DNA from: an uncultured Clostridia bacterium
GTDB lineage: Bacteria > Bacillota > Clostridia > TANB77 > CAG-508
NCBI GenBank assembly: GCA_904384245.1
Contig: CAJFJM010000002.1
Coordinates: 1 to 54,315 of the forward strand
DNA: 54,315 nucleotides
Direction: 5' to 3'
Each line of letters opens with the position of its first letter. Position 1 is the stretch's first letter. Below, one piece after another: positions 1 through 17,846 of the stretch. The notes below the pieces were generated by a model. The model searched no databases. It was given only the letters and a program-made list of their open reading frames with translations, and was not told the origin of the DNA. A program made the position numbers and the translations under genes.

Positions 1-1230
1 ATTTGCTCCATGTTCACTAAATGCCTTTCTTCCACTACAAAATCTTTTCTTTAATTTACTAAATATCTGACTTTCTTGTGTTCCCATATTTCTGTATTCC
101 ATTCCTTCTGGTGCCTCTGGTACTTCTACTATATCTTGGTACCTTTCTAGTCCACTACTTAAATAACTCTGTAATGTATTTAATTTTTTTACTGCTTTAT
201 ATTCTCCTCCTAATTCTACCTTTAATCCGTCTATTGCTTTTTCTATCTTATCATATTGTTTTGTTTTCACTAATTCTTCTATTATATTTCTATATTCTTT
301 TGGTACATCTCTTACTATTTCTTGCATTATATGAAATTGATCCTTTTGATATATTCCTCCTTTTGCTGTTATTCCTTTTGTTCATTTCGCTCCATCTCCA
401 TTTACTACTCTTAATTTTATTTTCTCTACATCATATTGTTGATATACTCTTGCATCTCTTAATTTCTTTATTTCTTTTGGCTTCATCATTCCTGCTATAT
501 ATTGCTTATTTATTAATGCATGCCTTTTATCATCTTTTTTCCATCCTTCATACATTACATGCAATTTTAATTCTGTTTTGATTTTTTGCTTTGGATTAAA
601 TTCTTTATTTTCTTTTTCACATTTCTTTTTATTTTTTTCTAATCTTTCCTTCCTGTCTTTTCCTTGTAAATTTATCCACAATCCATCTGCTTCTTCAAAC
701 AGTGCTGTTATTTGCTTTAATCCTGCCACTAGTTGTCCCTTATCTAACATTTTCCTTTCTTCTTTTTCTTTCTTTGTTATTTTGTCTCCTAATCTTACTA
801 CTATATTTCTTATCCATTCAAAACTTAATGTTGCATTTGTTGTTTCTTTTAGTACTGTTTCTGCTTTTCTGTATGAATCTGTTATTGGCACTGTTTCTAC
901 TATTTTTTCTACTAAATTTTCTGATGCCTTTCCTTCTGTATTTATATGCATTTTTTCATCTAACAAATATACTCTTTTCTTTATTCCTGCTTCTTCAACT
1001 TCATACATTGCTCTTACATATTCTACTTCGCCCATCACTGTTTTTATGGTGTTTTTTCTTAATCCTTTATGTCTGTATTTCTTGCTGTTTCTTGCTTTCA
1101 TTATTTTTCTATCATAGCTTTCTAGTATCAATTTTATTATTAGACATCCAAAACTACATACAAATTTAAATATTTTTTTCTCTAAATTATTGAATTTTAT
1201 TTCTTCTTCTGTTACAATTTCTTCAAACAT
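1..1230 (-). mobile_element. ISLre2-family (UPF0236-type) IS transposase gene. The C-terminal end runs off the window, and there is one in-frame TGA at 382-384.
   Basis: ORF 382-1230 (MFEEIVTEEEIKFNNLEKKIFKF...RVVNGDGAK) has the layout I associate with ISLre2 transposases. My translation of the minus strand from 381 to 1 continues in the same frame with no stops (TKGITAKGGIYQKDQFHIMQEIVRDVPKEY...GRKAFSEHGAN). A hairpin atgtaggc/gcctacat at 1316-1347 lies at the probable IS end. Confidence 0.7.
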
Positions 1231-1352: not shown

Positions 1353-1487
1353 TTACACTAACTTTTCTAAATTCTTGATATGTTTTGTTACTGCAGGTTG
1401 TGAAATGTGTAAAATTTCACTTGCTTTTGACAAATTTTCTTGGTCTGCTACAATTTTAAAAATTCTATATAATTCTAAATTTATCAT
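1353..1487 (-). pseudogene. N-terminal HTH fragment (44 aa) of a LysR-family regulator, truncated next to the IS
   Basis: Hand translation gives MINLELYRIFKIVADQENLSKASEILHISQPAVTKHIKNLEKLV*. This is the canonical LysR HTH (SQPAVTKxIKxLE), and it stops where the effector domain should begin, immediately beside the IS end. Confidence 0.7.
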
Positions 1488-1502
1488 ATTATAACCTTCT
1501 TT

Positions 1503-5138: not shown

Positions 5139-5282
5139 TTTTAATTCCCCCTTTTTTATTTTTTATATTTACTTTATATTTATAGTCTAATTGAATTATA
5201 TCATATTTATCATTTTTATATGATTTTTTGTTGGCAATTTTGTGAAAATTTTGTGCTTTTTTATGTGTTGTTTCCTATACAA

Positions 5283-5313
5283 TAAAAAATTTAGAGGAGG
5301 TTTCCCCCCTCTA
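5283..5313 (-). terminator. Rho-independent terminator after the deaminase/HTH pair
   Basis: The minus strand reads tagaggggggaaacctcctcta followed by aatttttt. The GC-rich stem overlaps the stop codon of the mini-ORF. Confidence 0.6.
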
Positions 5314-5439
5314 TTCAATCTCTCCTCTATATCGGAGCTCATTTATGTCTCTTCGGATGGTCTCCTTAGATACCTCTAGTTCTTCTGCTATCTCTTGGTG
5401 AGTCATTCCTTCCTTAAGACATTCTTTTACAAGGCGCAT
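5311..5439 (-). CDS. 42-aa stand-alone helix-turn-helix mini-protein (DeoR/HTH_11-like N-terminal motif)
   Basis: Hand translation gives MRLVKECLKEGMTHQEIAEELEVSKETIRRDINELRYRGEIE*. The stretch EIAEELxVSxxTIRRDIxxL is a classic wHTH recognition segment. The segment is markedly more GC-rich than its surroundings. It is too short for the supplied ORF track. Confidence 0.4.
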   Translation of the reverse strand: MRLVKECLKEGMTHQEIAEELEVSKETIRRDINELRYRGEIE

Positions 5440-5474
5440 CCATTATTTACCATCTTAGTCCTGATACTTTTTTA

Positions 5475-8015
5475 TTATAAATCTATCTTCTTATATACAT
5501 TACTACCATTATCCACTATTTCTGGGTTGTCTTCTAATATTTTATTTACAATATTTTCTTTCATAGAAAAAGGTATTACATATCCTCCTAATGATTTTGC
5601 TTTTTCTCTTAGTGCTGTGTTTTCTTCATTTACATATATTTTTGATTTTCCTTTTCCGTTTTTTGCTTCTTGGACTAAATTAGATACTGGTGAGTTTCCA
5701 TCAAATGCTACTACAACTGAACTTCTGCGTTCAAATATTTCATAGTTGAAACTTTTGTATATTCCTGATTCTTCATTTTCAGTTGATATTCTTATTGCAT
5801 TTAAGTTTTCATTTTTTAAATTTTGTTCTACTTCTTCTGTTATCATTTTTGGTATGATTGCATCTATTTCAAATTTTTTATTTAGTTTTTTTGATATGTC
5901 TATTATTGCTTTTTCATATCCTTGCATTTTATGACCTATTACAAAATATGCTTTTTCATTATTTACTCTTTTTATTAGTTCTGTTAAAATTGCTTTTCCT
6001 TCTTCTGTTAGTACTGTTTCTCTTCCTTGTGCGTTAAAGCTTCCTCCTGCTATTATTATTGGTACTTTGTCTGTTGGTAGTTCTGCTATTTTTTCTTTTA
6101 GGACTTCTTCTGATTCTACTCCTATTCTTAGTCTTAGGTTCATTTTTTTGTTTTTGCTTTCTTCTTCGTTTTTTTGTTCTTCTTGCGTTATTGCTTCTTC
6201 TATTGTTCTTCCGTTTAGGAATTCTTGAAATTTTTTACTTTTTTCTGTAAAGTATTTTTCGTTTCTTTGCATTATTTCTTCTTCTACTTTTCTCATTGCT
6301 TCAAAATCGTTGTCATTTAAGTTTAATAGGTTTTGTAGTGCTAGTTGTTCGTCTATTGTGTCTGTTCCATAAAACCCGCAGCCATCTGTTCCTTGGACAC
6401 ATTTTATATTGTTTTTTAGATATGTTTTTAGAGGATGGTTTTCTAGGTTTGTTAAATTATTTAGTCTTACATTTGATGTTAATTGGAATTCTAGAACTGC
6501 TCCTGTTTTTTGCATCTTTTTGATTAGTGCTTTTCCTTTTTCTGAGTTTAAGTCTTGTGTGTAAAGTCCATGACCTAGTCTAAAGTTTGGTATTTTTTCT
6601 CCTGGTTTTAGTGAATTTAGTATACAATCTATTGATTTTTCTACATTTTCTCTTAAACTGTCATTTTCTCCTGCATGTATTCTTATTGTAAAATTTGGGT
6701 CTTGTTCTACAACATATCTTACTATTTCTGTTATTGCTGGTTGTAATTCTGATATGTCATTTATTTCTTCTCCTATAAAGTCACTTCCTGCTACATATGG
6801 ACTTTTTGCTATTGCTTTTAACACATCTATATTTTCTCTTAAATAATTACTACTTGTTTTTTGGTCTTTTATTATTGTTAGTGGTATTCTTCTTATTGCA
6901 ACTAGTAGTCTTATTTTTACTCCTGTTTCTTCTTCTATTTTTGGCATTATTTCATGCATTTGTTCTATTACTCTAATTCCTGGTTTGCCTTTTTTTGTTA
7001 GGTTAGTGTCTGCTATTTCTACATATTTTATTCCTTGTTTTTGATATTCTCTTGCTATCCAAAGTAGTTTGTTTTGGAAAAATGTGTTGTTTTTGTATGG
7101 GCTTGTTTCTTCTTTGTCTTTTAGCATTTGTTTTACCATTGCTTTTATGTCTTTTTCTGGGATTTGGTCTACTTTTTTTAAGTCCATTTTAATTTGTTCA
7201 TCACATTCTACTCCTCTTGCAAATACATATCTGTATAAATATAATTTTTCTAGGTTTGTAAATACTGCTTGACCGTCTTTTAGTATTGCTAGACTCGTTC
7301 TGATTTTTGATATGTTATATTCTGCATTTTCTAAGTTGTTTAGTATGAAATCTGCAAAATTTATAAATGTGTTATCATTTATTCTTCTTGTTAGATATTT
7401 TCCTGTTAACTCTGAATCTTCAAATTGTTTTGCTACTTCTTCTCTTTGTTTTAATATTTTTTCTTCTTGTGATTTTGTCATTTTTAGGTTTAATTTTTTT
7501 ATGTAGTATAATGGATATCTTATTTGATTTGCTATTCCTAGTGCTATTAGGCAGTCTGGCGTTAGGTTTGCATTCATATGTGTATGTAAATCTGTTCTGA
7601 ATTTTGATTTTTTTAGTATATATGATTTTACTATTGTTTTTTCTATTGGCAAGTTATATTCTTTTGTTTGTGACATTAGTGTTTTTGTTATTGCTGGTAT
7701 TTTTGCTTTTATTTCTATTTTTCCATCTTCAAAAATATTTGCAATTTTAAATCCACCAAGCCTGAAGATATATACTATCTCATTATCTCCATTTATACTT
7801 GCTGGTATTGTTCCTTTTATTATTTTCATATCATTTTCATTTTTTATTGTTTCAACATTACATAGCTTTGCTAAGTTTGTTATTAAATTTCCTGTATTGT
7901 GGTTTGGAGTTTCTAAAATATATGTTAGTTCATCTTCGTTTGTTTTGTATAGATTTACTATTATATCTTTTTCTTTGTCTAAATAGAATTTATTAAATAG
8001 ATTTAAATTATTCAT
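5475..8015 (-). CDS. Multidomain protein: unknown N-terminal domain, adenosine/AMP-deaminase-fold (amidohydrolase) domain, and C-terminal LOG/SLOG-like Rossmann domain
   Basis: 846 aa. Deaminase-fold motifs are RTDLHTHMN, IRIHAGEN, LGHGLY, LEFQLTSNV and VQGTDGCG. A charged linker (EEQKNEEESKNKK) follows. The C-terminus has IIIAGGSFNAQG ... VIGHKMQGYE ... VVAFDGNSPVSNLVQEA, which resembles the LOG/SLOG glycine-rich loops. Confidence 0.65.
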   Translation of the reverse strand: MNNLNLFNKFYLDKEKDIIVNLYKTNEDELTYILETPNHNTGNLITNLAKLCNVETIKNENDMKIIKGTIPASINGDNEIVYIFRLGGFKIANIFEDGKIEIKAKIPAITKTLMSQTKEYNLPIEKTIVKSYILKKSKFRTDLHTHMNANLTPDCLIALGIANQIRYPLYYIKKLNLKMTKSQEEKILKQREEVAKQFEDSELTGKYLTRRINDNTFINFADFILNNLENAEYNISKIRTSLAILKDGQAVFTNLEKLYLYRYVFARGVECDEQIKMDLKKVDQIPEKDIKAMVKQMLKDKEETSPYKNNTFFQNKLLWIAREYQKQGIKYVEIADTNLTKKGKPGIRVIEQMHEIMPKIEEETGVKIRLLVAIRRIPLTIIKDQKTSSNYLRENIDVLKAIAKSPYVAGSDFIGEEINDISELQPAITEIVRYVVEQDPNFTIRIHAGENDSLRENVEKSIDCILNSLKPGEKIPNFRLGHGLYTQDLNSEKGKALIKKMQKTGAVLEFQLTSNVRLNNLTNLENHPLKTYLKNNIKCVQGTDGCGFYGTDTIDEQLALQNLLNLNDNDFEAMRKVEEEIMQRNEKYFTEKSKKFQEFLNGRTIEEAITQEEQKNEEESKNKKMNLRLRIGVESEEVLKEKIAELPTDKVPIIIAGGSFNAQGRETVLTEEGKAILTELIKRVNNEKAYFVIGHKMQGYEKAIIDISKKLNKKFEIDAIIPKMITEEVEQNLKNENLNAIRISTENEESGIYKSFNYEIFERRSSVVVAFDGNSPVSNLVQEAKNGKGKSKIYVNEENTALREKAKSLGGYVIPFSMKENIVNKILEDNPEIVDNGSNVYKKIDL

Positions 8016-8113
8016 TTTTGACCTCCATTAAATTTTTTGATTACAAATAGTTAATCTATATTATATCATGGATTTTATTTTTATGCAATAATTATGTTAA
8101 CATTTTTTTGGGG

Positions 8114-8258
8114 CGGATGATAGGGACAGGCTATTTTGTCCGGATGAACGTTAGGGACACTCTATTTTGTTCACAAAACATTTTTTTATATTTTGTGAAC
8201 GAAATGGAGTGTCCCTAACGTTCATTTTTCGGACAAAATGGCCTGTCCCTATCATCCG
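8114..8258. repeat. Long near-perfect palindrome (~145 bp), copy 1
   Basis: The left arm cggatgatagggacaggctattttgtccgg..aacgttagggacactctattttgttcacaaaaca mirrors the right arm tattttgtgaacgaaatggagtgtccctaacgtt..cggacaaaatggcctgtccctatcatccg. Confidence 0.9.
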
Positions 8259-8268
8259 AATTCAGATT

Positions 8269-8730
8269 TTAATAGATTATGCCATTATTTTCTGTGTAAT
8301 TTTTAAAACTTTCTAAACATTCTTCCCTATCTATCTCTTTTAAATTTATTAAACTTTTATTTTTTCCTTTTAAATATTCATAAATCATATCATCTCTAAA
8401 TCCTATTTCTCCTGCGTCTTTTTTTGTGCATCCATAATATACATTTTTTATATTTGCCCATATTATTGCTGATAAACACATTGGACATGGTTCGCATGAT
8501 GTGTATAAAGTGTATTCTGATAAATCATATGTGTTTAATTTTTTACATGCTTCTCTTATTGCTGTAATTTCTGCATGTGCTGTTGGGTCATTGTTTTTTA
8601 GTACTTTGTTGTTTCCATATGCTATTATTTTATTGTTTTTGTCTACAATTACTGCTCCAAATGGTCCTCCTTCTTTGTTTTGCATTCCTTTGTCTGCCAT
8701 TTCTTTTGCTTTTTTCATAAATTCATTCAT
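8269..8730 (-). CDS. guaD: Guanine deaminase (CDA-fold nucleoside/nucleotide deaminase, B. subtilis GuaD type)
   Basis: 153 aa. GGPFGAVIV...DPTAHAEITAIREAC...YTSCEPCPMCLSAI contains the HAE / PCxxC zinc motifs, and overall it resembles GuaD. Confidence 0.7.
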   Translation of the reverse strand: MNEFMKKAKEMADKGMQNKEGGPFGAVIVDKNNKIIAYGNNKVLKNNDPTAHAEITAIREACKKLNTYDLSEYTLYTSCEPCPMCLSAIIWANIKNVYYGCTKKDAGEIGFRDDMIYEYLKGKNKSLINLKEIDREECLESFKNYTENNGIIY

Positions 8731-8837
8731 ATTTTTTCCTCCTTTATTTATTTGTGAATTTTATTTGTGAATTAAATGTTCACTTTTGTTTGTTCTATTT
8801 TTTTATTTATTAAATATATTGGTATAGGGGGATTATT

Positions 8838-9920
8838 GTGTTTATCCATTCTTTTGTTCTTAATAAAAATAAAAAAATGTTAGTTTTAATTTTTGCTATT
8901 ATTGTAGTTTTTTTGTCTTCTTCCCTTATTATTTATTTTTCTTTTTCTCATGATGAAGAAACATCTGATTCTTCTGATGAGTCAAGTAGTAATGATTATA
9001 TTAAATGGGTGGATTTTAATGTGACTTGTGAGGCTATGAAACTTACTTCTGCTTTGGATATTGAGTCTCATAATTCTGTTAATAATGATAATGTGGTTGT
9101 TTATAACTGGATTGAACTTCTTTCTTATCTTGCTTGTAAAAATGGTGGTAATTTTAAAAATTTTAAATCAAGTGATTTGGATGATTTAGTTTCTAAATTG
9201 GAAAGTGGAGAAAGTATGGAAGATTTAACTTCTTCTATGAAGTATTATTCTTATTATTTTGAGGCATATTCTGCTGTTTTGGGTGGTTTTATTGGTAATT
9301 ATTCTATAGATTCTTCCGCTTCCTCTTTAGATTCTAATACAGTTTCTTTTGAAAGTAAATATGGTTTAAAAGTTTTTTTGCCAATTGCTAAAAATTATAG
9401 TTTTAGTCATTATGATGATTTTGGTAATTCTCGTTCATATGGTTTTAGGCGTACTCATTTGGGTAATGATTTAATGGGTAGTATTGGTACTCCTATTATT
9501 GCTGTAGAGTCTGGTATTGTCGAACATCTTGGTTGGAATCAATATGGTGGTTGGCGTATTGGTATTCGTAGTTTTGATGGTAAGAGATATTATTATTATG
9601 CTCATCTTCGTAAAGATCACCCATATGTTGCTAATCTTGAGGAAGGTTCTACTGTTTTAGCTGGTGATGTTATTGGATACCTTGGAATGACTGGTTATAG
9701 TATAAAGGAAAATGTTAATAATATAAATGTTCCTCATCTTCATTTTGGTATGCAACTTATTTTTGATGAGTCTCAGGTTGATAGCCCTAATGAGATTTGG
9801 ATTGATGTTTATGAGATTGTTGAATTTTTAAAGCAGAATCGCTCTGAAGTTGTTCTTTCTGATTCTGAAAGTAAGGATTATTCTAGGAAATATTCTTTTT
9901 TTGAGGAAGGATTGGAATAG
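8838..9920 (+). CDS. Membrane-anchored M23 (LytM-type) metallopeptidase
   Basis: 360 aa with an N-terminal TM helix. M23 motifs are present: HLGNDL...GTPIIAVESG...YYYAHL...GMTGYS...PHLHFG. GTG start after the SD tagggggatt. Confidence 0.85.
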   Translation: MFIHSFVLNKNKKMLVLIFAIIVVFLSSSLIIYFSFSHDEETSDSSDESSSNDYIKWVDFNVTCEAMKLTSALDIESHNSVNNDNVVVYNWIELLSYLACKNGGNFKNFKSSDLDDLVSKLESGESMEDLTSSMKYYSYYFEAYSAVLGGFIGNYSIDSSASSLDSNTVSFESKYGLKVFLPIAKNYSFSHYDDFGNSRSYGFRRTHLGNDLMGSIGTPIIAVESGIVEHLGWNQYGGWRIGIRSFDGKRYYYYAHLRKDHPYVANLEEGSTVLAGDVIGYLGMTGYSIKENVNNINVPHLHFGMQLIFDESQVDSPNEIWIDVYEIVEFLKQNRSEVVLSDSESKDYSRKYSFFEEGLE

Positions 9921-9921
9921 G

Positions 9922-10071
9922 CCGGATGATAGGGACAGGTGATTTCGTCCGAGAAAAGAACGTTAGGGACCACTCCATTTCGTTCACAAAACATTTTTTA
10001 TATTTTGTGAACGAAATGGAGTGTCCCTAACGTTCTTTTTCCGGACAAAATCGCCTGTCCCTATCATCCGG
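9922..10071. repeat. Long near-perfect palindrome (~150 bp), copy 2
   Basis: ccggatgatagggacaggtgatttcgtccg...aacgttagggac...ttcacaaaacattttttatattttgtgaa...gtccctaacgtt...cggacaaaatcgcctgtccctatcatccgg. It is highly similar to 8114-8258. Confidence 0.9.
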
Positions 10072-10364
10072 TTCTTTTCTAAAATTAATTTTATCTCTTT
10101 ATTTATTTTTCCTCTTGTTACACTTAAAGTGACTTCATCTTTTGGTTTTTTTGTGTAAATATATTTTCTCAAGTCATTCATTGTGTTTAATTCTATTCCA
10201 TCAATTTTTGTAATTATATCTCCTTCTTTGAGTTCTGTGTTGTCTGCTGGGCTGTTTTTTGTTATTTGTGCTACATATAGTCCTTTTTCAAAATTTAGAC
10301 TTTTATTTAAGTATGGTATTACTTCTTTATCATATGCGTATATTCCTATTCCGGGTTTCTTCAA
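9984..10364 (-). CDS. htrA: HtrA/DegP-family protease, PDZ-domain fragment (second half of a frameshifted gene)
   Basis: KPGIGIYAYDKE...GLYVAQITKNSPADNTELKEGDIITKIDGIEL is a PDZ domain. It overlaps the protease-domain ORF in another frame. The last ~30 codons (RMIGTGDFVRKKNVRDTPFRSQNIKNVL) are encoded by the palindromic repeat. Confidence 0.8.
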   Translation of the reverse strand: MKKPGIGIYAYDKEVIPYLNKSLNFEKGLYVAQITKNSPADNTELKEGDIITKIDGIELNTMNDLRKYIYTKKPKDEVTLSVTRGKINKEIKLILEKNRMIGTGDFVRKKNVRDTPFRSQNIKNVL

Positions 10365-11193
10365 ATGTTCCTGTGTTTTTAAAACTTTCTATGATTGGTT
10401 TTACTATGTCTATTGGTATTGCAAATCCTATTCCTTCTGCTGATGATATTTTTACTGTGTTTATTCCTATCATTTCTCCATTTGCTGTAATTAACGGACC
10501 TCCACTGTTTCCTGGATTTATTGTTGCATCTGTTTGTATTAAATCTGTCATGTATGATACTTGGTCAATTTCTTGGATTTTTATTGTTCTATTTTTTGCA
10601 CTTATGATTCCTGATGTTACTGTTCTTCTAAATTCAAATCCTATTGGATTTCCTATTGCATATACTGTTTCTCCTACTCTTGTGTTTTCTGGCTCTCCTA
10701 ATGTTATTGTTTGTAAATTTTTTGCATTTATTTTTGTTATTGATAAATCTATATCTGAGTCACTCCACATTACTGTTCCATCATATGTGTTTCCATTTTC
10801 TAATGTGATATAACATTTACTGTATTTTCCGCCTGTTACATGTTCATTGCTTAAGATATATCCGTCTTCTGAAACTATTACTCCTGTTCCTAATCCTAAT
10901 TCTTCTTCACTGCTTGTTCCAAAAATTGAACTTCCTACATTTTTTAATTTTGATATCCCAACTACACTTTGGGTTGTTTTTTCTATTATGTCTGCAATTT
11001 TTGTGCTTTTTTCTTGTACTTCTTCCACAGTTTGTTCATTTTCTGTGGATAATGTTTTTTGAGTTTCATAGTCTGATGTTTTTATTTCTATTTTTGTGTA
11101 TGTAGTGTATAAATAAAATCCTAAAATCCATAATAATATGAGGATTATTGCTGTTATTATTATTTTCTTTCTTGTGTTTCTTCTTTTTCTCAT
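10330..11193 (-). CDS. htrA: HtrA/DegP-family serine protease, TM anchor plus trypsin-like domain (first half of a frameshifted gene)
   Basis: GTGVIVSEDGYILSNEHV...DSDIDLS...GNSGGPLI gives the His/Asp/Ser triad. The likely start is the ATG at 11193, 8 nt after the SD gaggtga (the ORF track starts at 11205). The frame breaks at the CCC run at 10353-10355. Confidence 0.85.
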   Translation of the reverse strand: MRKRRNTRKKIIITAIILILLWILGFYLYTTYTKIEIKTSDYETQKTLSTENEQTVEEVQEKSTKIADIIEKTTQSVVGISKLKNVGSSIFGTSSEEELGLGTGVIVSEDGYILSNEHVTGGKYSKCYITLENGNTYDGTVMWSDSDIDLSITKINAKNLQTITLGEPENTRVGETVYAIGNPIGFEFRRTVTSGIISAKNRTIKIQEIDQVSYMTDLIQTDATINPGNSGGPLITANGEMIGINTVKISSAEGIGFAIPIDIVKPIIESFKNTGTFEETRNRNIRI

Positions 11194-11387
11194 AGAAAAT
11201 ATCACCTCAAAATTATTATTCTCTTATTTTTTTATTTTAGTCATTTTATATGATTGTTTTTTTTATTTTCTTATTTTCTTTTAACATTAAAAATTTATTT
11301 TTTGTTCTATTATTCTAGTATTATATATTTATTTTTTGTTTAATTATTTTAGCATTTTAAATTTGTTCTTTTTTTTATTATTTTAAT

Positions 11388-11637: not shown

Positions 11638-13362
11638 TTATACCAATTCTTTTAATTCCTCATATCTTTTTACTTTTTGTGTTGTTGTTTTCTTTAGTCC
11701 TTGTGTTGTTATTGTTATACTTTTTATGTGTTTAAATATTGGTAATGTTTGATTTATTTTTTTGATTTCTTCCCAGATTATTTGCTTATATTCTTGTTCT
11801 GTTTTTTCTCCTAGATATTCTTTTATGTGTTCTTTGTCATATACTATTTTTGCACATAGCATTGTGTCTGTTGTGCTTTTGTCTCTTGAATATACTATTG
11901 ATTCTGCTACATATGGTATTTTATTTATTAGGAATTCTATTTCTTGTGGATATACATTTTTTCCGTTTTTTAATACTATTATATCTTTTTTTCTTCCTGT
12001 TATGAAAATAAATCCATCTTTGTCTATGTATCCGTAATCTCCTGTTCTAAACCAACCATTTTTTAAGACTTTTTTTGTTTCTTCTTCATTTTTGTAATAT
12101 CCTAGCATTACATTTGGTCCTTTTACTGTTATTTCTCCTTCTCCATTTTCGTCTTTGTCTTCTATTTTTACTTGGAGACTTGGAAGTGCTAGTCCTACTG
12201 AGCCTGGTCTTTTTTCTTTGTCTGTTTCTGCTGAGATTACTGGCGATGTTTCTGTTAGTCCATAGCCTTGTACTAATGATATTCCTAAATTATTATATCC
12301 TATAATTGTGTCTTTGTTCATTGGTGCTGCTCCATATAAAACTACTCTTAGATTTCCTCCAAAATTATCTAGAATTTGTTTAAATATTACTTTTCTTAAG
12401 TCAATTTTGCATTTTAGTAATGCATTTGAGATTTTTGTCATTTTGTTTATTAGTTTTGTTTTTCCTTTTTCTTCTATTGCTTTTAATATTTTTTTGTACA
12501 TTGTTTCTAATACTAGTGGTACTGCTACAAAGACTGATACTTTGTATTCTGCTAAATTTTTTTGTATGTATTTTAATCCATCACAAAAAGCTACTGTTGC
12601 TCCACTGTAAAATCCGTAAAGGAATGTTATTGTACATTCAAATGTGTGATGTATTGGTAAGAATGATAATAGTGTGTCTGTATCATAGATTTTTACAAAT
12701 GTTGCTATATCTGTTAAATCAGAGCATATGTTTTTCTGTGTTAACATGACTGCTTTTGGTTCATTTGTTGTTCCTGATGTAAATAGCATTATAGACATTT
12801 TATTTGGGTCAATTTTTATTTTTTCATATTTTGTATCTCCATTTTCTAGTAATTTTTTTCCTTCTTTTACTAATTCTTGTACAGTTTTGGATTTTTTATC
12901 ATTTTTTTCTGTGCATATGATTTCTTTTATTTTTTCTTCTGATTTTTGTGTTTCTAATGCAATATCTAAATATTTTTTGTCACATATAATTGCTTCTGCT
13001 CCACTTCTTATAATTAGTCTTTGCATTTCATTGTCTGGTAATGCTTTATCTATTGGAACTACTACCATGTTTCCACATGTTATTGCTAGATAGCTTATAC
13101 ACCATTCATAACTGTTATTTCCTACTAAAACTATTTTCTTTCCTTCTAATCCTAATTTTAATAATGTTGTACTTAATGCTTTTATATCTTCTCCTGTTTG
13201 TTTATATGTTTTTTCTATGTATTCAGGCTCTTTTGCTGTATAATCTTTTTTGTATTTATATGCTATGTTTTCAGCATAATGTGTACATGAATAATCTACT
13301 AAATCTCTATAGTCTTTTACTGGTCTTGATTCATAAACTTTTCTATTTTCATTATCACCCAT
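11638..13362 (-). CDS. AMP-dependent long-chain acyl-CoA synthetase / fatty-acyl-AMP ligase
   Basis: 574 aa. Adenylate-forming motifs are present: LFTSGTTNEPKAVMLTQKN, GYGLTETS, TGDYGYIDKDGF. It is divergent from the NRPS gene. Confidence 0.85.
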   Translation of the reverse strand: MGDNENRKVYESRPVKDYRDLVDYSCTHYAENIAYKYKKDYTAKEPEYIEKTYKQTGEDIKALSTTLLKLGLEGKKIVLVGNNSYEWCISYLAITCGNMVVVPIDKALPDNEMQRLIIRSGAEAIICDKKYLDIALETQKSEEKIKEIICTEKNDKKSKTVQELVKEGKKLLENGDTKYEKIKIDPNKMSIMLFTSGTTNEPKAVMLTQKNICSDLTDIATFVKIYDTDTLLSFLPIHHTFECTITFLYGFYSGATVAFCDGLKYIQKNLAEYKVSVFVAVPLVLETMYKKILKAIEEKGKTKLINKMTKISNALLKCKIDLRKVIFKQILDNFGGNLRVVLYGAAPMNKDTIIGYNNLGISLVQGYGLTETSPVISAETDKEKRPGSVGLALPSLQVKIEDKDENGEGEITVKGPNVMLGYYKNEEETKKVLKNGWFRTGDYGYIDKDGFIFITGRKKDIIVLKNGKNVYPQEIEFLINKIPYVAESIVYSRDKSTTDTMLCAKIVYDKEHIKEYLGEKTEQEYKQIIWEEIKKINQTLPIFKHIKSITITTQGLKKTTTQKVKRYEELKELV

Positions 13363-13604: not shown

Positions 13605-16600
13605 ATGAAAAAAAGTTATCCTTTAACAATCCCTCAAGAATCTATTTGGTTAACAGATAAATTTTATGAATATACTAGTATATCTAATCTTGGTGGAACT
13701 TTATTGATAAAAGAGAAAGTTGATTTTGATTTGTTAAATAAATCTATCAATTTATTTATAGAGCAAAATGATGGTATTAGACTTTCTTTTAATTTTGAGA
13801 ATGGCTCTCTTTATCAATTTGTTAAAGATTATTCATTTGAGAATTTTCCTGTTTTTGATGTCAATTCTGATGAGGAATTGCATAATTTGGAAAAGTCTTT
13901 TATGCATGAGAGATTTACTATTTCAAATTTGCCTTTATATAGATTTAATTTAATAAAATTGAAAAATGGTTTTGGTGGCTTTAATATTATTATGCATCAT
14001 CTTATTTCTGATGCTTGGAGTATGAGTCTTTTAGTTACTAAAATTATTGATATTTATTCTTGTTTATTAAAAAATCAAACAATTTCTGTTGAAAATGCTC
14101 CATCTTATATTGATTATATTGAGTCTGAGCAAAAATATTTAGAATCTGAAAAATTTAAAAAAGATAAATTGTTTTGGGAGGATAAATTTAATACTTGTCC
14201 ATCCTGTACTTCATTTTCGCAAAAAAATTCCCAGAATGCTTCTCAAAAAGCAAAAAGAAAAATATTCTCTTTAGATAATAGCTCTAAAATTGTCGAATTT
14301 TGTAAAAATACTGATTTATCAGTTTTTACATTTTTGATGAGTGTTTTTTCTATATATTTATATAGAATTTCTGGTGTAGAAGATATTATTATTGGTTCTC
14401 CTATTTTAAATAGGAATGGGCTTAAGGAAAAAAATATGATGGGACTTTTTATAAATACTTTGCCTGTAAAAATAGAAATACATGATAATCCATCTTTTTC
14501 TGCTTTGGCAAAACATGTGTCTGATACACAATTTTCTATGTTTAGGCATCATAAATTTCCTTATTCTAGAATATTGGAGTTTGTGAGAGATAAATATAAA
14601 TTTTCTAATAATTTGTATGATACAATTATTTCTTATCAAAATGCGAGAGATAATTCTGATACTTCAGATGTTAAATATACAACTAATTGGGACTTTAATG
14701 GCGCTATTTCTAATAGTTTGGATATTCATATATATGATTTAGATAATACTGGTATTTTGAAATTGTTTTATGATTATAGACTTGATAAATTTAGTGAAGA
14801 TGATATTAGTGATATTCATAATAGAATTTTATATATAATTGACCAAATTATTTCTAATCCTGATATTTTGGTTAATGATTTAGAAATTGTTACTCCAGAT
14901 GAAAAAAATAATTTATTGTATAAGTTTAATGATACTTTTTTAGATTATCCTAAAAATAAAACTATAAATGAATTGTTTGAAGATCAAGTTTTGGTAACAC
15001 CTGATAAAAAGGCTGTTGCTTTTGGTGATTCTACTTTGACTTATTATGAATTAAATAAAAAAGCTAACCAGTTGGCTAATTTTTTAAGAAAGGAAAAAAA
15101 TATAAAATCTAATACTTTTGTTGGTATTCTTACTAAACGTTCTTTAGAGATGGCTGTTGGTATTTTAGCTATTTTAAAAGCTGGTGCTACATATGTTCCT
15201 ATTGACCCAGAATATCCTGAAGATAGGGTTTCTTATATGATAGAAGATTCTGGTGCTAAACTTATTTTGGTAGATAATTATACACAAGATCTTTATAAAT
15301 TAAAAAATGTTGTTAATATTGATTTATCAAATGAATTTTATAATAATTATTCAGATGAGAATTTACCTGTTTTGAATACACCTGATGATTTAATGTATTT
15401 AATTTATACTTCTGGTTCTACTGGTAAACCAAAAGGTGTTATGTTGATGCATAAAAATGTTAATAATTATTTACATGGTTTAAAGGATAAAATCGATTTT
15501 TCTAGCGAAAAAGTGATTGTTTCTGTTACTACGATTTGTTTTGACATTTTTGTTACTGAATTTTGGGGTGGATTGTTAAATGGTTTAACAGTTGTAATTG
15601 CAAATGAGCAAGAACAGAATATTGCTTCTGATTTGAGCAAAATTTGTTCTAAATATAATGTTAATATGATACAAACAACACCTTCTAGATTTACTGCTTT
15701 ACTTGCGGAGAATTCGGACTTTTTGAATACTATTACAGATTTAATGGTTGGTGGTGAGGCTTTACCTAAAACATTGTTAAAACAATTACATAATTTCCCT
15801 TGGATTAAAATTTTTAATATGTATGGTCCAACTGAGACTGCTGTTTGGTCAACTATTAAAGAATCTCCTGTGGAAGAAAATATTACTATTGGTACTCCAA
15901 TTGCAAATACTGTTGTTTATATTTTAGATGATAATTTAAAATTACTTCCTCCAAATATTCCTGGAAATTTATATATTGGTGGAGATGGAGTTTGCAAGGG
16001 ATATTATAATAGACCTGACCTTACAAAAAATGTTTTTGTTAAATCTCCTTTTGATGATTCTATTATATATAATACTAAGGATTTGGCTTATATACAAAAA
16101 GATGGAGAGATTGTTCATTTGGGTAGAAGTGATTTTCAAGCTAAAGTTCATGGGTTTAGAGTTGAACTTGGTGAAATTGAGAATGCTATTATGACTTATC
16201 CTGATATTACTAATGCTGTTGTTTTGTTACAAGATAATTCTTTAAATGCTTTTATAGTTGCAAATTCTACTATTGAAGCACAGGATGTTATAACTTATCT
16301 TATGAAATCTTTACCTCATTATATGATTCCAAAAACTATAACACAAATTGATGAGATGCCTCTAACTCCTAATGGAAAAATAAATAGAAAAAGTCCTATT
16401 TTAAAAGCTACATATCAAGTTTCTAAAAATCAAGTTTTACCTAGAAATGATACTGAAAAATTGCTTTATAATTTGTTTAAGGAAACTGTTAATTTGGATA
16501 TTGGTGTTACTGATAATATATTTGAACATGGTGTGGATTCTTTGATGATTATTAAACTTGTAAGCAAATTATATCTTTATAATATAAATTTAAGCATACA

Positions 16601-17846
16601 GGATTTTTATAATAATCCATCTATTGAGGGAATTTCTAAATTGATTTGTGAACATACAAATAAAAGTGATGTGCCTGATTCTTCATCTTCTAAACATATT
16701 GTTAAAATTTCTGATATTCAGAAACCTTTGTATTCTGAATTATCTGATAAAAAAGATGGAATTCTATTAACTGGTGTTACTGGTTTTTTAGGTATACATG
16801 TACTAGAATCTTTAATTCTTCATTCTGATTATAAGATATATTGTAGTATTAGGACTAAAAATGGGCAGGCTTCAAAATCAAGACTTATTGATAGACTTAA
16901 TTATTATTTTGATGGTAAATATATTGATTTAATTGAGAAGAGAATTTTTGTTGTTGATTCTAATATTACTGATAATTATTTTGGTTTGACTTTGGATAAT
17001 TATAATAAACTTGGTAAGAAGATTTTTAGTGTTATACATTGTGCTGCTGATGTTAGACATTATGGCAATTATTCTTCTTCTGAAAAAATAAATATAACAG
17101 CTACTAAAAATATCATTCAATTTTGTTTAGATTTTAATGCTGTTCTTAATCATATTTCTACAATGACTGTTTCTGGATATGGTTTGGTTGATGTTAACTA
17201 TACTGGTATATATGATGAAGATAAATTTTATATTGGACAAAATTATGCCGATAATATCTATGTTAAAACTAAGTTTTTGGCAGAAGAAGAAGTTTTCAAG
17301 GCTTTGGATAAAGGGTTAATTGCAAATATTTATAGAATTGGTAATTTAACAAATAGATTTTCTGATTATAAATTTCAATTTAATTCATATGAAAATGGAT
17401 TTATAAATAAACTAAAATCTATTAAACATATTAGGTTATTGCCTGAATCTTTGAGAGATTATCAATTGGAACTTACTCCTGTTGATTTGTGCTCTGAGGC
17501 CATTGTTAAACTTGCTATTTCTTATAAGAAAAAATATAATGTTAATGTTTTTCATTTATATAATAATAATTATATTTCTATGAATATGATTACTAATATA
17601 TTGACTTATTATAATTTAAATGTTAAATTTGTACCTGATGATGAGTTTGAAAAAGCTGTTGCTTCTTCCATTGCAACATCTAAAGAGAATGCTGGATTTA
17701 TTGAGCAATTTAATATTAAAAATGTTCTTGGAACTAATCAATTTGCTTTTTCTAACGAGAAAACATTATCTATTCTTAAATCATTAGATTTTAGTTGGAA
17801 GAATATTACAGAAGATTATTTGAAATTTATAATAAGGGGACTTTAG
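13605..17846 (+). CDS. Single-module nonribosomal peptide synthetase, C-A-T-R (terminal thioester reductase)
   Basis: 1413 aa. C domain: MHHLISDAWS (HHxxxD). A domain: LIYTSGSTGKPKGV, YGPTE, GNLYIGGDGVCKGYY, PNGKINRK. PCP: FEHGVDSLMIIKL. R domain: LLTGVTGFLGIHVLESL plus YVKTK. Confidence 0.95.
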   Translation: MKKSYPLTIPQESIWLTDKFYEYTSISNLGGTLLIKEKVDFDLLNKSINLFIEQNDGIRLSFNFENGSLYQFVKDYSFENFPVFDVNSDEELHNLEKSFMHERFTISNLPLYRFNLIKLKNGFGGFNIIMHHLISDAWSMSLLVTKIIDIYSCLLKNQTISVENAPSYIDYIESEQKYLESEKFKKDKLFWEDKFNTCPSCTSFSQKNSQNASQKAKRKIFSLDNSSKIVEFCKNTDLSVFTFLMSVFSIYLYRISGVEDIIIGSPILNRNGLKEKNMMGLFINTLPVKIEIHDNPSFSALAKHVSDTQFSMFRHHKFPYSRILEFVRDKYKFSNNLYDTIISYQNARDNSDTSDVKYTTNWDFNGAISNSLDIHIYDLDNTGILKLFYDYRLDKFSEDDISDIHNRILYIIDQIISNPDILVNDLEIVTPDEKNNLLYKFNDTFLDYPKNKTINELFEDQVLVTPDKKAVAFGDSTLTYYELNKKANQLANFLRKEKNIKSNTFVGILTKRSLEMAVGILAILKAGATYVPIDPEYPEDRVSYMIEDSGAKLILVDNYTQDLYKLKNVVNIDLSNEFYNNYSDENLPVLNTPDDLMYLIYTSGSTGKPKGVMLMHKNVNNYLHGLKDKIDFSSEKVIVSVTTICFDIFVTEFWGGLLNGLTVVIANEQEQNIASDLSKICSKYNVNMIQTTPSRFTALLAENSDFLNTITDLMVGGEALPKTLLKQLHNFPWIKIFNMYGPTETAVWSTIKESPVEENITIGTPIANTVVYILDDNLKLLPPNIPGNLYIGGDGVCKGYYNRPDLTKNVFVKSPFDDSIIYNTKDLAYIQKDGEIVHLGRSDFQAKVHGFRVELGEIENAIMTYPDITNAVVLLQDNSLNAFIVANSTIEAQDVITYLMKSLPHYMIPKTITQIDEMPLTPNGKINRKSPILKATYQVSKNQVLPRNDTEKLLYNLFKETVNLDIGVTDNIFEHGVDSLMIIKLVSKLYLYNINLSIQDFYNNPSIEGISKLICEHTNKSDVPDSSSSKHIVKISDIQKPLYSELSDKKDGILLTGVTGFLGIHVLESLILHSDYKIYCSIRTKNGQASKSRLIDRLNYYFDGKYIDLIEKRIFVVDSNITDNYFGLTLDNYNKLGKKIFSVIHCAADVRHYGNYSSSEKINITATKNIIQFCLDFNAVLNHISTMTVSGYGLVDVNYTGIYDEDKFYIGQNYADNIYVKTKFLAEEEVFKALDKGLIANIYRIGNLTNRFSDYKFQFNSYENGFINKLKSIKHIRLLPESLRDYQLELTPVDLCSEAIVKLAISYKKKYNVNVFHLYNNNYISMNMITNILTYYNLNVKFVPDDEFEKAVASSIATSKENAGFIEQFNIKNVLGTNQFAFSNEKTLSILKSLDFSWKNITEDYLKFIIRGL

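What the first reader, a model, noticed from the sequence alone, without database searches (positions are those of the whole stretch)
5283..8015. Adenosine-deaminase-fold enzyme fused to a LOG/SLOG-like domain and co-transcribed with a 42-aa HTH mini-ORF: a possible ligand-gated purine-nucleotide deaminase
Seen in sequence:
- The ORF is 846 aa, whereas housekeeping adenosine deaminases are single-domain proteins of roughly 330-350 aa.
- It has a ~140-aa N-terminal domain with no motif I recognise.
- The central amidohydrolase/ADA fold retains the metal and catalytic motifs (DLHTH, IHAGE, GHG, TSN, TDG).
- A charged linker follows, then a ~200-aa Rossmann-like tail with the glycine-rich loops IIIAGGSFNAQG and AFDGNSPVSNLVQEA, reminiscent of LOG/SLOG domains.
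- 35 nt downstream lies a 42-aa ORF that is essentially a bare wHTH (EIAEELEVSKETIRRDINEL). It is conspicuously GC-richer than its surroundings.
- The stop codon of this ORF sits inside a GC-rich terminator hairpin, so the two ORFs look like one transcription unit.

Established knowledge: ADA-fold enzymes joined to sensor or oligomerisation modules act as immune effectors. Examples are RADAR RdrB, which deaminates ATP/dATP, and the CARF-deaminase Cad1 of type III CRISPR. The SLOG domain is the signal receptor of Thoeris ThsA.

Inference: an ADA-SLOG fusion could be a sensor-effector of the same logic, in which ligand binding triggers nucleotide deamination.

Caveats: no signal-generating partner (TIR, cyclase or RdrA-like ATPase) is adjacent. 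Purine-salvage genes (guaD at 8269, a nucleoside phosphorylase at 1721) are nearby, so a metabolic role is also plausible.
Basis: partly seen in the sequence, partly recalled or inferred. Interest (0 to 1): 0.7.

Follow-up and report, generated by a model that had tools for sequence, protein, structure and literature searches.

The report
Adenosine-deaminase enzyme fused to SLOG domain
This is a real, conserved gene for a three-part enzyme (unknown N-terminal domain, intact adenosine-deaminase core, nucleotide-sensor-type SLOG tail) from an uncharacterised bacterial family, but the small HTH gene beside it is a deletion-truncated bystander and nothing at this locus points to phage defence.

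Summary
The sequence observations hold. An 846-aa ORF (5475-8015, minus strand) has an intact ADA catalytic core and a C-terminal tail that folds as a SLOG domain. A 42-aa HTH ORF and a terminator follow it.

The ADA-SLOG fusion is real and defines a broad uncharacterised family (about 150 clusters at 50% identity with E<=1e-30). All six metal and catalytic residues are kept in 49-50 of 50 diverse members.

The "co-transcribed mini-HTH" is a strain-specific accident. Conspecific contigs carry a 58-aa HTH gene with its own promoter and RBS, behind a terminator that ends the ADA gene. The window has an exact 201-bp deletion that removes all of these and the first 16 codons. The HTH gene is found in only 2 of 23 related species.

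No signal-generating or defence partner is adjacent in any locus examined, and the family is absent from the phage and plasmid collections. In this clade the gene is chromosomal, 63-93% identical across 23 gut Clostridia species, and often follows a guanine-deaminase gene. Distant members sit beside purA, NUDIX, Ham1 or NAPRTase genes, and a few sit beside Cas9 or restriction-modification genes.

Best reading: a SLOG-regulated purine-nucleotide deaminase working in purine homeostasis. An immune role remains possible.

The parts
5475..8015 (-). Gene for the 846-aa three-domain protein (N-domain, ADA core, SLOG tail)
   Evidence: ORF list. Full-length homologues at 63-93% identity in 23 species. 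AlphaFold2 model with pLDDT 91.4 and pTM 0.91.
7611..8015 (-). N-terminal domain, aa 1-135: beta-rich with three helices, identity unknown. Conserved 'FYLDxxK' and 'NLxxNL' motifs.
   Evidence: Secondary structure. Iterative HMM shows homology to the N-termini of distant members P0301, P0272, P0380 and P0286. No Pfam or PDB sequence match.
6321..7604 (-). ADA-fold (amidohydrolase) catalytic core, aa 138-565, with about 100 extra, mostly helical residues between the HxH strand and the part that Pfam matches
   Evidence: Pfam PF00962. Foldseek top hits are mouse and human ADA, ADAL, AMP deaminase and Cad1. Invariant H144, H146, H447, E450, H482, D544. Alignment to Salmonella ADA 6n9m.
6096..6320 (-). 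Long charged helical linker, aa 566-640
   Evidence: DSSP helices 568-600 and 605-620 in the model. This is the least conserved stretch in A1.
5511..6095 (-). SLOG-fold C-terminal domain, aa 641-835 (closest Pfam family among relatives is LSDAT). Conserved K650, P652, G657, S659, G699, E701, K702, G773, N779, N786, K805.
   Evidence: AlphaFold2 model of aa 630-846, pLDDT 91. Foldseek hits to Moco-carrier protein, LOG, TRPM, DprA and ShosA. Pfam LSDAT_prok in 12 of 34 homologues. Column statistics.
8072..8100 (-). Promoter-like site (TTAACA-17-TAAAAT) upstream of the ADA-SLOG gene
   Evidence: Consensus scan, 10 of 12 matches. Pattern match only; the region holds no more such sites than shuffled sequence.
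5311..5439 (-). 42-aa HTH ORF: the 5'-truncated remnant of a 58-aa HTH_11/DeoR-type gene. Not part of the enzyme system.
   Evidence: Pfam HTH_11 and HTH_DeoR. The 58-aa form P0393 is listed on 62 contigs, the 42-aa form on 2. Deletion mapping.
5440..5441 (.). Junction of a 201-bp deletion relative to conspecific strains. It removed the ADA gene's terminator and the HTH gene's promoter, RBS, start codon and first 16 codons.
   Evidence: 60 nt before the junction are identical, and the rest after it differs at only 3 positions, against L031-L034. blastn shows collinearity of window 5441-11288 and 1363-5441 with L031 1-5846 and 6047-10125.
5292..5313 (-). Intrinsic-terminator-like hairpin followed by a T-run. 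It is the HTH gene's own terminator, and in this strain also the first terminator after the ADA gene.
   Evidence: Terminator scan: 9-bp stem, 5 GC pairs. The sequence is identical in conspecific contigs.
8269..8730 (-). Upstream co-directional neighbour: CDA-fold guanine (or guanosine) deaminase, 153 aa. Adjacent to the ADA-SLOG gene in about 10 related species.
   Evidence: PDB 1WKQ/1TIY guanine deaminase E 3e-38, against TadA about 1e-17. Synteny.

Best explanation
The gene encodes a stand-alone, chromosomally inherited enzyme with three domains.

Shown:
- The central ADA-fold domain keeps every residue needed for zinc-dependent hydrolytic deamination of a purine 6-amino group.
- The tail has a SLOG fold.
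- The ADA-SLOG architecture is conserved family-wide, and iterative HMM searches find a related N-domain in several distant members.
- The gene has no fixed partner gene.

Inferred:
- The deaminase differs from housekeeping adenosine deaminase at two substrate-contact positions. The Asp that binds the ribose 5'-OH is replaced by Asn, Ser, Ala or Thr. The second Asp of the 'TDD' motif is Gly. The substrate is therefore most likely a 5'-substituted adenine compound, that is an adenine nucleotide (AMP, ADP, ATP or a deoxy form), rather than free adenosine.
- The C-terminal SLOG domain (TRPM/LSDAT-like, with conserved glycine-rich loops at the usual nucleotide-binding edge) probably binds a nucleotide and sets the deaminase activity allosterically, possibly through oligomerisation.
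- In this gut Clostridia clade its most likely role is purine-pool homeostasis (adenylate to inosinate conversion, alongside guanine deaminase), not phage defence.
- The neighbouring 42-aa HTH ORF is a truncated bystander that became co-transcribed only through a 201-bp deletion in this strain.
For: Architecture and fold:
- Pfam ADA.
- Full-length AlphaFold2 model, pLDDT 91.4, with ADA, ADAL, AMPD and Cad1 as top structural matches.
- Tail model, pLDDT 91, matching LOG, Moco-carrier protein, TRPM, DprA and ShosA.
- LSDAT_prok, LSDAT_euk, YAcAr and LDcluster4 hits in tail homologues.

Catalytic competence:
- H144, H146, H447, E450, H482 and D544 are kept in 49-50 of 50 diverse members.

Substrate hint:
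- The family reads 'TDLHTHlsg' where Salmonella ADA reads 'TDIHRHLDG', and 'GtDGaG' where it reads 'NTDDPA'.
- The D19-equivalent position is never acidic and the D296-equivalent is Gly in 47 of 50.

Ligand site:
- G657, G699 and G773 are near-invariant. K650, P652 and K805 are kept in 43-44 of 50.

Vertical, non-mobile inheritance:
- 23 species at 63-93% identity, with synteny decaying gradually.
- No hits in viral contigs, BFVD, phage records or plasmids.

Purine-linked neighbours:
- Guanine deaminase immediately upstream in about 10 species.
- serA, ADA-SLOG, hisZ, purA order kept in three members that each represent a separate 50%-identity cluster.
- Nudt16-like NUDIX directly downstream in an Ignavibacteriales member.
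- Ham1 ITPase and a RelA_SpoT synthetase directly upstream in L024.
- NAPRTase upstream in three loci.

HTH as bystander.
Against: - No biochemical data exist. Substrate, ligand and allostery are all inferred.
- Gene neighbourhoods are heterogeneous. Most neighbours in the window's clade have nothing to do with purines (cohesin, sortase and dockerin surface genes, TetR/MMPL, sigma factor, MscS, QueH).
- Some distant members lie next to a resolvase plus a type II CRISPR-Cas9 locus (L040-42), or next to a restriction-modification pair plus KilA-N (L027). That fits defence or mobile islands.
- In the window's clade the SLOG loops are degenerate relative to the family consensus (GG to GH, G772D, D779N). 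Ligand binding here could be altered or lost.
- The window's own tail gives no Pfam SLOG hit. The link rests on relatives and on fold.
Confidence: 0.5

Rival explanations
1. Autonomous immune sensor-effector. The SLOG tail senses an infection-derived nucleotide, and the ADA core then deaminates ATP or dATP to ITP or dITP, arresting growth as Cad1 and RdrB do.
For: - The domain logic matches Cad1: a Rossmannoid sensor joined to an ADA core. Cad1 is among the structural matches, and PADLOC gives a weak CARF_ADA hit (5e-9).
- SLOG domains are ligand receptors in Thoeris ThsA and TRPM2 (established knowledge).
- Some distant members lie beside a resolvase and Cas9-Cas1-Cas2 (L040-42), or beside an ICEA/D12-methylase restriction-modification pair and KilA-N (L027).
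Against: - No TIR, CD-NTase, Cas10 or RdrA-like gene was found next to any of about 90 loci. Only selected neighbours were scanned against Pfam.
- The Cas neighbour is type II, which makes no cyclic oligoadenylate.
- No RdrB hit.
- The gene is conserved at 63-93% identity across 23 species in decaying synteny, like a core gene.
- It is absent from phages and plasmids.
- Several members are linked to purA, guaD or NUDIX genes.
Confidence: 0.2
2. Bifunctional salvage or catabolic enzyme. The SLOG tail is itself catalytic, a LOG-like nucleotide N-glycosidase (phosphoribohydrolase), and works in series with the deaminase. For example, AMP is split to adenine plus ribose-5-phosphate, and adenine is then deaminated to hypoxanthine.
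For: - LOG enzymes are among the closest structural matches of the tail, including AMP-bound LOG 5zbk and 5zbl.
- Distant members carry LOG-like motifs 'TGGTNHGVEK' and 'IGGGGVVRDMIQ' with a conserved acidic residue (D in 33 of 50).
- P0272 adds a nucleoside 2-deoxyribosyltransferase-like domain.
- Several members have purine-metabolism neighbours.
Against: - In the window's clade the LOG-type motifs are degenerate ('VIGHKMQGYEK', 'AFDGNSPVSN') and the acidic position is Asn.
- Pfam places the relatives nearest LSDAT, the ligand-binding TRPM type, and not the LOG family.
- No Pfam LOG (Lysine_decarbox) hit was obtained.
Confidence: 0.15
3. The ADA-fold core acts on something other than a standard adenine nucleotide or nucleoside, for example a modified purine, ADP-ribose or an NAD-derived adenine. 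The altered base-contact residue reflects this different substrate.
For: - The family-wide replacement of the N7-contacting Asp by Gly (47 of 50) and of the 5'-OH-contacting Asp departs from all classical ADAs.
- LSDAT/TRPM2-type SLOG domains bind ADP-ribose (established knowledge).
- NAPRTase is a neighbour in three loci.
Against: There is no direct evidence. By sequence, the closest solved relatives are ordinary bacterial and Plasmodium adenosine deaminases. Metal and general-acid residues are canonical.
Confidence: 0.1

Closest known systems
Cad1 (CARF-adenosine deaminase of type III CRISPR; PDB 8z3k, 9c6f, 9ebt)
   Same: An ADA-fold deaminase covalently joined to a Rossmannoid nucleotide-sensor domain. 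Cad1's ADA domain is a significant structural match (E about 3e-8) and a weak profile match (5e-4 to 1e-3).
   Different: The sensor here is a C-terminal SLOG domain, not an N-terminal CARF. There is an extra N-terminal domain of unknown fold. There is no type III CRISPR or Cas10 context. By sequence the core is closer to ordinary ADAs than to Cad1.
RADAR RdrB (ATP/dATP deaminase)
   Same: A large (about 800-900 aa) ADA-family protein with insertions relative to housekeeping ADA.
   Different: No PADLOC RdrB hit. RdrB is not among the top 50 structural matches. No RdrA ATPase gene is adjacent in any locus. RdrB has no SLOG tail (own knowledge).
LOG / Moco-carrier protein / TRPM N-terminal (LSDAT) SLOG domains
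   Same: The tail has the same Rossmannoid SLOG fold. Relatives hit Pfam LSDAT_prok and LSDAT_euk. The glycine-rich loops are conserved.
   Different: These domains are not known to be fused to an ADA core. The LOG catalytic motif PGGxGTxxE is not kept in the window protein. No ion-channel or Moco context.
Thoeris ThsA (SIR2-SLOG)
   Same: General logic of an effector domain joined to a SLOG receptor.
   Different: ThsA is not among the top 50 structural matches of the tail. The effector is an ADA core, not SIR2. No TIR-domain ThsB gene is nearby.
Housekeeping adenosine deaminase Add, and nucleotide-acting relatives (ADAL/MAPDA, AMP deaminase)
   Same: Same fold and the same metal and catalytic residues.
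   Different: It scores far below the NCBIfam Add equivalog cutoffs (51.5 against 216.55). It is 2.5 times longer. It lacks the two substrate-contact Asp residues. It has added N- and C-terminal domains.
Kongming KomA (dAMP deaminase; bioRxiv 10.1101/2024.12.20.629578)
   Same: An ADA-family enzyme acting on adenine nucleotides in bacteria. One relative (L024) has a Ham1-like gene nearby.
   Different: KomA's catalytic His residues are at positions 15 and 17, as in single-domain ADAs, and it is encoded in a three-gene operon with a HAM1-like gene (KomB) and a SIR2 gene (KomC). No SIR2 gene is present here or in L024.

Membership tests
Adenosine/AMP deaminase superfamily (Pfam PF00962, amidohydrolase fold) | Pfam model score above the gathering threshold | tested here: met
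   63.4 bits against a cutoff of 27, E 2.4e-17, aa 321-575.
Adenosine/AMP deaminase superfamily (Pfam PF00962, amidohydrolase fold) | Zinc ligands and catalytic residues: HxH, the His and Glu of HAGE, the His of GHG, and the metal-binding Asp | tested here: met
   H144, H146, H447, E450, H482 and D544 are present, and kept in 49-50 of 50 homologues. They align to Salmonella ADA.
Adenosine/AMP deaminase superfamily (Pfam PF00962, amidohydrolase fold) | TIM-barrel ADA fold | tested here: met
   Foldseek hits to 1fkw, 3iar, 8qch and 6n9m, E 6e-11 to 1e-9, TM-score on the target 0.68-0.76.
Housekeeping adenosine deaminase Add (NCBIfam TIGR01430 and PRK09358 equivalogs) | Score above the equivalog cutoff | tested here: not met
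   51.5 bits against a cutoff of 216.55. All other Add models are also far below cutoff.
Housekeeping adenosine deaminase Add (NCBIfam TIGR01430 and PRK09358 equivalogs) | Asp contacting the ribose 5'-OH (HxHLDG) and the second Asp of the TDD motif | tested here: not met
   N148 (S, A, N or T in the family) and G545 (Gly in 47 of 50).
SLOG superfamily | Rossmannoid alpha/beta fold matching known SLOG structures | tested here: met
   Nearly all top Foldseek hits are SLOG proteins: 2iz5, 1ydh, 7w2i, 5zbk, TRPM8/4/2, 4ljr and 8zva.
SLOG superfamily | Sequence-profile match to a SLOG family | tested here: inconclusive
   The window's own tail has no Pfam SLOG hit. Twelve of 34 homologous tails hit LSDAT_prok (best E 7.7e-6), 4 hit LSDAT_euk, 3 YAcAr and 3 LDcluster4. 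None was shown to exceed the gathering score.
LOG (cytokinin riboside 5'-monophosphate phosphoribohydrolase) | Catalytic motif PGGxGTxxE | tested here: not met
   The window has 'AFDGNSPVSNLVQE', with N779 at the acidic position. Distant relatives have 'GGGGVVRDMIQ'. The motif definition is from my own knowledge.
Cad1 (CARF-ADA, type III CRISPR accessory) | N-terminal CARF domain | tested here: not met
   The PADLOC CARF_ADA hit covers only aa 308-567 of the protein (profile positions 327-562), which is the ADA part. The N-domain has no CARF or Pfam hit.
Cad1 (CARF-ADA, type III CRISPR accessory) | Association with a type III CRISPR-Cas (Cas10) locus | tested here: not met
   No Cas10 was found in any examined locus. 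The only Cas neighbours are type II Cas9-Cas1 in L040-42.
RADAR (RdrA-RdrB) | Match to RdrB models and an adjacent RdrA AAA+ ATPase gene | tested here: not met
   No PADLOC RdrB hit. Immediate neighbours are guaD and clpB here, and varied non-RdrA genes elsewhere.
Thoeris (ThsA-ThsB) | SIR2 or TM effector joined to SLOG, with an adjacent TIR-domain ThsB | tested here: not met
   The effector domain is an ADA core. No TIR gene was found among the annotated or Pfam-scanned neighbours.
Kongming (KomABC) | Three-gene operon: ADA, HAM1-like and SIR2 | tested here: not met
   No SIR2 gene in the window or in related loci. Ham1 is adjacent only in L020-unrelated locus L024, without SIR2. Operon definition.
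   The HTH gene is present in 2 of 23 species. In conspecific strains a terminator and a promoter separate the two genes. The window has a 201-bp deletion.

The most novel reading that the evidence does not exclude
The family is a previously undescribed class of ligand-gated purine-nucleotide deaminases. A TRPM/LSDAT-type SLOG receptor switches an ADA-fold enzyme that converts AMP or ATP (or deoxy forms) to inosine nucleotides. This would be either a bacterial counterpart of the allosterically regulated eukaryotic AMP deaminase (a purine-nucleotide-cycle enzyme, consistent with purA linkage), or a self-contained nucleotide-depleting stress or immune effector that needs no partner gene.
Probability: 0.3. 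Interest if true: 0.7.

Novelty: new variant of a known kind. Interest (0 to 1): 0.45.

Why it matters
Sensor-fused adenosine deaminases (Cad1, RdrB) and nucleotide-acting ADAs (KomA) have only recently been recognised as regulators of bacterial nucleotide pools. An ADA core fused to a SLOG receptor would extend that principle to a new sensor type, and perhaps from immunity to ordinary metabolism. Bacteria are generally thought (my own knowledge) to lack a regulated AMP deaminase.

The family is large (about 150 clusters at 50% identity with E<=1e-30). It is common in gut Clostridia, and the sources that name it call it only 'hypothetical protein' or 'adenosine deaminase'. A defined activity would therefore correct many annotations.

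The case also carries a methodological lesson. An apparent operon seen in one strain can be the product of a small deletion.

Tried and rejected
- Direct Pfam, NCBIfam and PADLOC scans of the whole protein recognised only the ADA core.
- A PDB sequence search with the tail profile found nothing meaningful. Structure prediction was needed.
- The full-length Foldseek search was dominated by the ADA core and told nothing about the end domains. The tail was therefore modelled separately. Only two structure jobs were allowed, so the N-domain could not be searched by fold. Profile searches of it against Pfam and PDB were negative.
- A word-indexed search with the tail alone returned only fragments of the same family and no other architectures.
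- Viral contig scan, BFVD fold search, and phage and plasmid tblastn were all negative.
- The first metagenome scan with the 50-sequence alignment failed for lack of a conserved stretch. A 12-sequence sub-alignment worked.
- Literature searches for 'SLOG' with 'adenosine deaminase' and for 'LSDAT' with 'deaminase' found no description of this fusion. The 2015 Burroughs et al. SLOG paper is not held in the library, so prior mention there cannot be excluded.
- Kongming membership was considered because of the Ham1 neighbour in L024, and rejected because there is no SIR2 gene.
- TadA identity of the upstream deaminase was considered, and rejected in favour of guanine deaminase.

Full report
**1. 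Observation check**

The window has an 846-aa ORF at 5475..8015 on the minus strand. A 42-aa ORF at 5311..5439 follows it 35 nt downstream.

Pfam recognises only an adenosine-deaminase domain in the large protein (PF00962, aa 321-575, E 2.4e-17, 63.4 bits against a cutoff of 27). It recognises HTH_11 and HTH_DeoR in the small one. NCBIfam adenosine-deaminase equivalogs score far below their cutoffs (51.5 against 216.55), so this is not a housekeeping Add. PADLOC gives only a weak CARF_ADA hit, through the ADA core, and no RdrB hit.

A terminator-like hairpin at 5313..5292 (-) overlaps the small ORF's stop codon, and none lies between the two ORFs. A promoter-like site lies at 8100..8072 (-). 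The small ORF has 41% GC against 25.8% for the window, in the top 1% of 129-nt windows.

**2. The protein**

A scan of one genome per species found full-length relatives at 63-93% identity in 23 uncultured gut Clostridia MAGs. A 16-sequence alignment shows all three parts strongly conserved. The charged linker (about aa 600-640) is the most variable part.

An exhaustive HMMER search of 1.84 billion cluster representatives gave 781 hits at E<=1e-3 and 151 at E<=1e-30. These include many proteins of 750-1,070 aa, at 28-36% identity, that align across both the ADA core and the tail. Named examples are from Christensenellaceae and Ignavibacteriales, and are annotated 'hypothetical protein' or 'adenosine deaminase'.

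In a 50-sequence alignment the six ADA metal and catalytic residues (H144, H146, H447, E450, H482, D544) are kept in 49-50 of 50. Two substrate-contact positions differ from classical ADA across the family:
- The Asp of 'HxHLDG' is S, A, N or T and never acidic.
- The second Asp of 'TDD' is Gly in 47 of 50. The profile alignment to Salmonella ADA 6n9m shows this directly: 'TDLHTHlsg' against 'TDIHRHLDG', and 'GtDGaG' against 'NTDDPA'.

From my own knowledge, the first of these Asp residues binds the ribose 5'-OH in nucleoside-specific ADAs, and is non-acidic in nucleotide-acting relatives (AMPD, ADAL). This is a lead towards a nucleotide substrate, not a test.

**3. Structure**

AlphaFold2 on the 50-sequence alignment gave a confident model (mean pLDDT 91.4, pTM 0.91). 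It has four parts:
- a beta-rich N-domain (aa 1-135);
- the ADA barrel, with about 100 extra, mostly helical residues after the HxH strand;
- a long helical linker (aa 568-620);
- an alpha/beta tail.

Foldseek against the PDB returned ADA, ADAL, AMP deaminase and Cad1 for the core. By sequence profile the closest solved proteins are ordinary bacterial and Plasmodium ADAs (E about 1e-19). Cad1 is distant (about 5e-4 to 1e-3), and RdrB does not appear.

The tail was modelled on its own (aa 630-846, pLDDT 91). It matched SLOG-superfamily structures almost exclusively: Moco-carrier protein, plant and bacterial LOG (including AMP complexes), the N-terminal domains of TRPM8, TRPM4 and TRPM2, DprA and ShosA (E about 1e-4 to 4e-3, TM-score on the target up to 0.7).

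Scanning 34 homologous tails against Pfam gave LSDAT_prok in 12 (best E 7.7e-6), LSDAT_euk in 4, YAcAr in 3 and LDcluster4 in 3. All four are SLOG families. The closest sequence family is the TRPM-type LSDAT. ThsA was not among the top 50 structural matches.

Distant members carry LOG-like loops ('TGGTNHGVEK', 'IGGGGVVRDMIQ'). In the window's clade these loops are degenerate ('VIGHKMQGYEK', 'AFDGNSPVSN'; G772D, D779N). G657, G699, G773 and K805 remain conserved.

Iterative HMM searches show that the N-domain is homologous to the N-termini of several distant members. It matches nothing in Pfam or in PDB sequences, so its identity is unresolved.

**4. The HTH mini-ORF**

Among the 23 species, only the window's species and L003 have an HTH ORF between the deaminase gene and clpB.

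The protein database holds two forms:
- the 42-aa form, on 2 contigs;
- a 58-aa form, 93% identical, listed on 62 contigs.

Four conspecific contigs (same 846-aa gene, same neighbours) carry the 58-aa gene 188 nt after the deaminase stop codon. In that spacer lie an intrinsic terminator (GAAGGGTGG...CCCCATCCTTTTTT, -13.4 kcal/mol), a promoter-like TTGAGT-17-TGTGATAAAAT and a strong RBS AAAGGAGAA.

The window is identical to these contigs for 60 nt up to the junction. After the junction it differs at only three positions. In between it lacks exactly 201 bp, and blastn confirms the collinearity. The deletion removed the deaminase gene's terminator and the HTH gene's promoter, RBS, start codon and first 16 codons. 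The 42-aa ORF begins at what is Met17 of the intact protein.

The apparent two-gene transcription unit is therefore a strain-specific deletion product, not a design feature.

**5. Genomic context**

In the window's clade, about ten species share the upstream order acyl-CoA synthetase, HtrA, M23 peptidase, CDA-fold deaminase, ADA-SLOG. The 153-aa CDA-fold neighbour is a guanine or guanosine deaminase: B. subtilis GuaD 1WKQ at E 3e-38, against TadA at about 1e-17.

Downstream and elsewhere the neighbours vary and look like housekeeping genes:
- clpB;
- cohesin, sortase, dockerin and cadherin-like surface genes;
- TetR, MMPL and NUDIX;
- a sigma factor and CvpA;
- YlxM;
- an M18 aminopeptidase;
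- QueH-GNAT;
- MscS.

Distant members show the following contexts:
- serA, ADA-SLOG, hisZ, purA and a Ser/Thr kinase, kept in three members that each represent a separate 50%-identity cluster;
- a Nudt16-like NUDIX directly downstream;
- Ham1 ITPase and a RelA_SpoT synthetase upstream, with a CDA-fold deaminase two genes downstream;
- NAPRTase upstream, divergently oriented, in three loci;
- an unknown protein of about 150 aa downstream in four loci;
- a resolvase upstream and Cas9-Cas1-Cas2 downstream in L040-42;
- an ICEA/D12-methylase pair with KilA-N in L027.

No TIR, CD-NTase, Cas10 or RdrA-like gene was seen anywhere. Only selected neighbours of the metagenome loci were scanned against Pfam. 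No relative was found in viral contigs, BFVD, phage records or plasmids, apart from an ordinary add gene.

**6. Interpretation**

Shown:
- a real, conserved protein with three domains;
- an ADA core with a full catalytic set;
- a SLOG-fold tail;
- no fixed partner gene;
- no sign of mobility;
- an HTH ORF that is a truncated bystander.

Inferred:
- The substrate is probably an adenine nucleotide.
- The SLOG tail is a nucleotide-binding regulatory module.
- The role in this clade is purine-pool homeostasis alongside guanine deaminase. This is analogous to the allosterically controlled AMP deaminase of eukaryotes, and the purA linkage in a distant lineage fits a purine-nucleotide cycle.

I put about 0.5 on this. 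The rivals are:
- an autonomous immune effector of the Cad1 or RdrB type (0.2), kept alive by the Cas9, resolvase and restriction-modification contexts of a few members;
- a bifunctional enzyme in which the tail is a LOG-like glycosidase (0.15);
- a non-standard substrate (0.1).

**7. Comparison and novelty**

The protein is a member of the ADA superfamily, and its tail is a member of the SLOG superfamily at the fold level. It is not a member of Add, Cad1, RdrB, ThsA or KomA: defining features of each were tested and not met (see the membership table).

It works most like Cad1 in logic (sensor plus ADA), with a different sensor and no CRISPR link. I found no description of an ADA-SLOG fusion in the searchable literature. 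The founding SLOG paper could not be read, so prior mention there cannot be ruled out.

I rate it a new variant of a known kind, of moderate interest (0.45). The architecture is real, widespread and uncharacterised. The immune story and the HTH operon, which made the original finding striking, are not supported at this locus.

Noticed in passing
window 8111-8258 and 9920-10071: Two copies of a ~150-nt near-perfect palindromic element (arms such as CGGATGATAGGGACAGG...) flank the guaD-M23 gene pair, and one lies between guaD and the ADA-SLOG gene. Both copies are absent from conspecific contig L032 and arranged differently in L034, so the element looks like a mobile MITE-type repeat.
   Followed up: partly
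window 382-1487 (-): Only a 44-aa N-terminal fragment of a LysR-type regulator remains (1353..1487), followed by a UPF0236-family transposase-like ORF (382..1230). Conspecific contigs have an intact 292-aa LysR gene, and homology to them stops at window position 1363, so an insertion disrupted lysR in this strain.
   Followed up: partly
window 9984-11205 (-): The HtrA-like protease (trypsin domain, 10330..11205) and its PDZ domain (9984..10364) are separate, overlapping ORFs in different frames. The same split is seen in conspecific contigs and in several other species (L003, L006, L008, L019). It may be a conserved two-gene arrangement or a programmed frameshift.
   Followed up: no
L031 6001-6177 (and window 5311-5439): The intact 58-aa HTH gene sits just upstream of clpB and has its own promoter, RBS and terminator. 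Its window remnant is much richer in GC (41%) than the genome (26%), which suggests horizontal acquisition. Its function and any relation to clpB are unknown.
   Followed up: partly
L040-L042, about 4600-13700: In one distant lineage the ADA-SLOG gene lies between a serine resolvase plus an unknown 233-aa protein (upstream) and a type II CRISPR locus with Cas9, Cas1 and a ~109-aa ORF that may be Cas2 (downstream).
   Followed up: partly
L035, L036, L037 (about 5200-12100): The order serA, ADA-SLOG, hisZ-like, purA and a Ser/Thr kinase is kept in three family members that each represent a separate 50%-identity cluster (the hisZ-like gene is missing in L036). This is a possible functional link between the deaminase and adenylosuccinate synthetase.
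   Followed up: partly
L044 5795-6268 and 8094-8555; L045 3314-3760; L046 3104-3562; L053 5119-5559 and 9486-9944: A family of ~150-aa proteins with no Pfam match, carrying a conserved 'YNPDNIFKN' motif and a hydrophobic C-terminus, lies directly downstream of ADA-SLOG genes in four loci, sometimes in two copies.
   Followed up: no
P0272 (L025 8001-11051); P0360; L068: Some family members are much longer. P0272 (1,016 aa, Ignavibacteriales) adds a nucleoside 2-deoxyribosyltransferase-like domain after the SLOG tail. P0360 is 1,779 aa. My crude ORF caller gave a 3,956-aa ORF in L068, which was not verified.
   Followed up: no
window 11638-17846: An acyl-CoA/AMP-ligase gene (11638..13362, -) lies divergent from a 1,413-aa ORF (13605..17846, +) that looks like a non-ribosomal peptide synthetase (identified by eye from its AMP-binding motifs; no domain scan was run). 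The pair is conserved in several related species.
   Followed up: no
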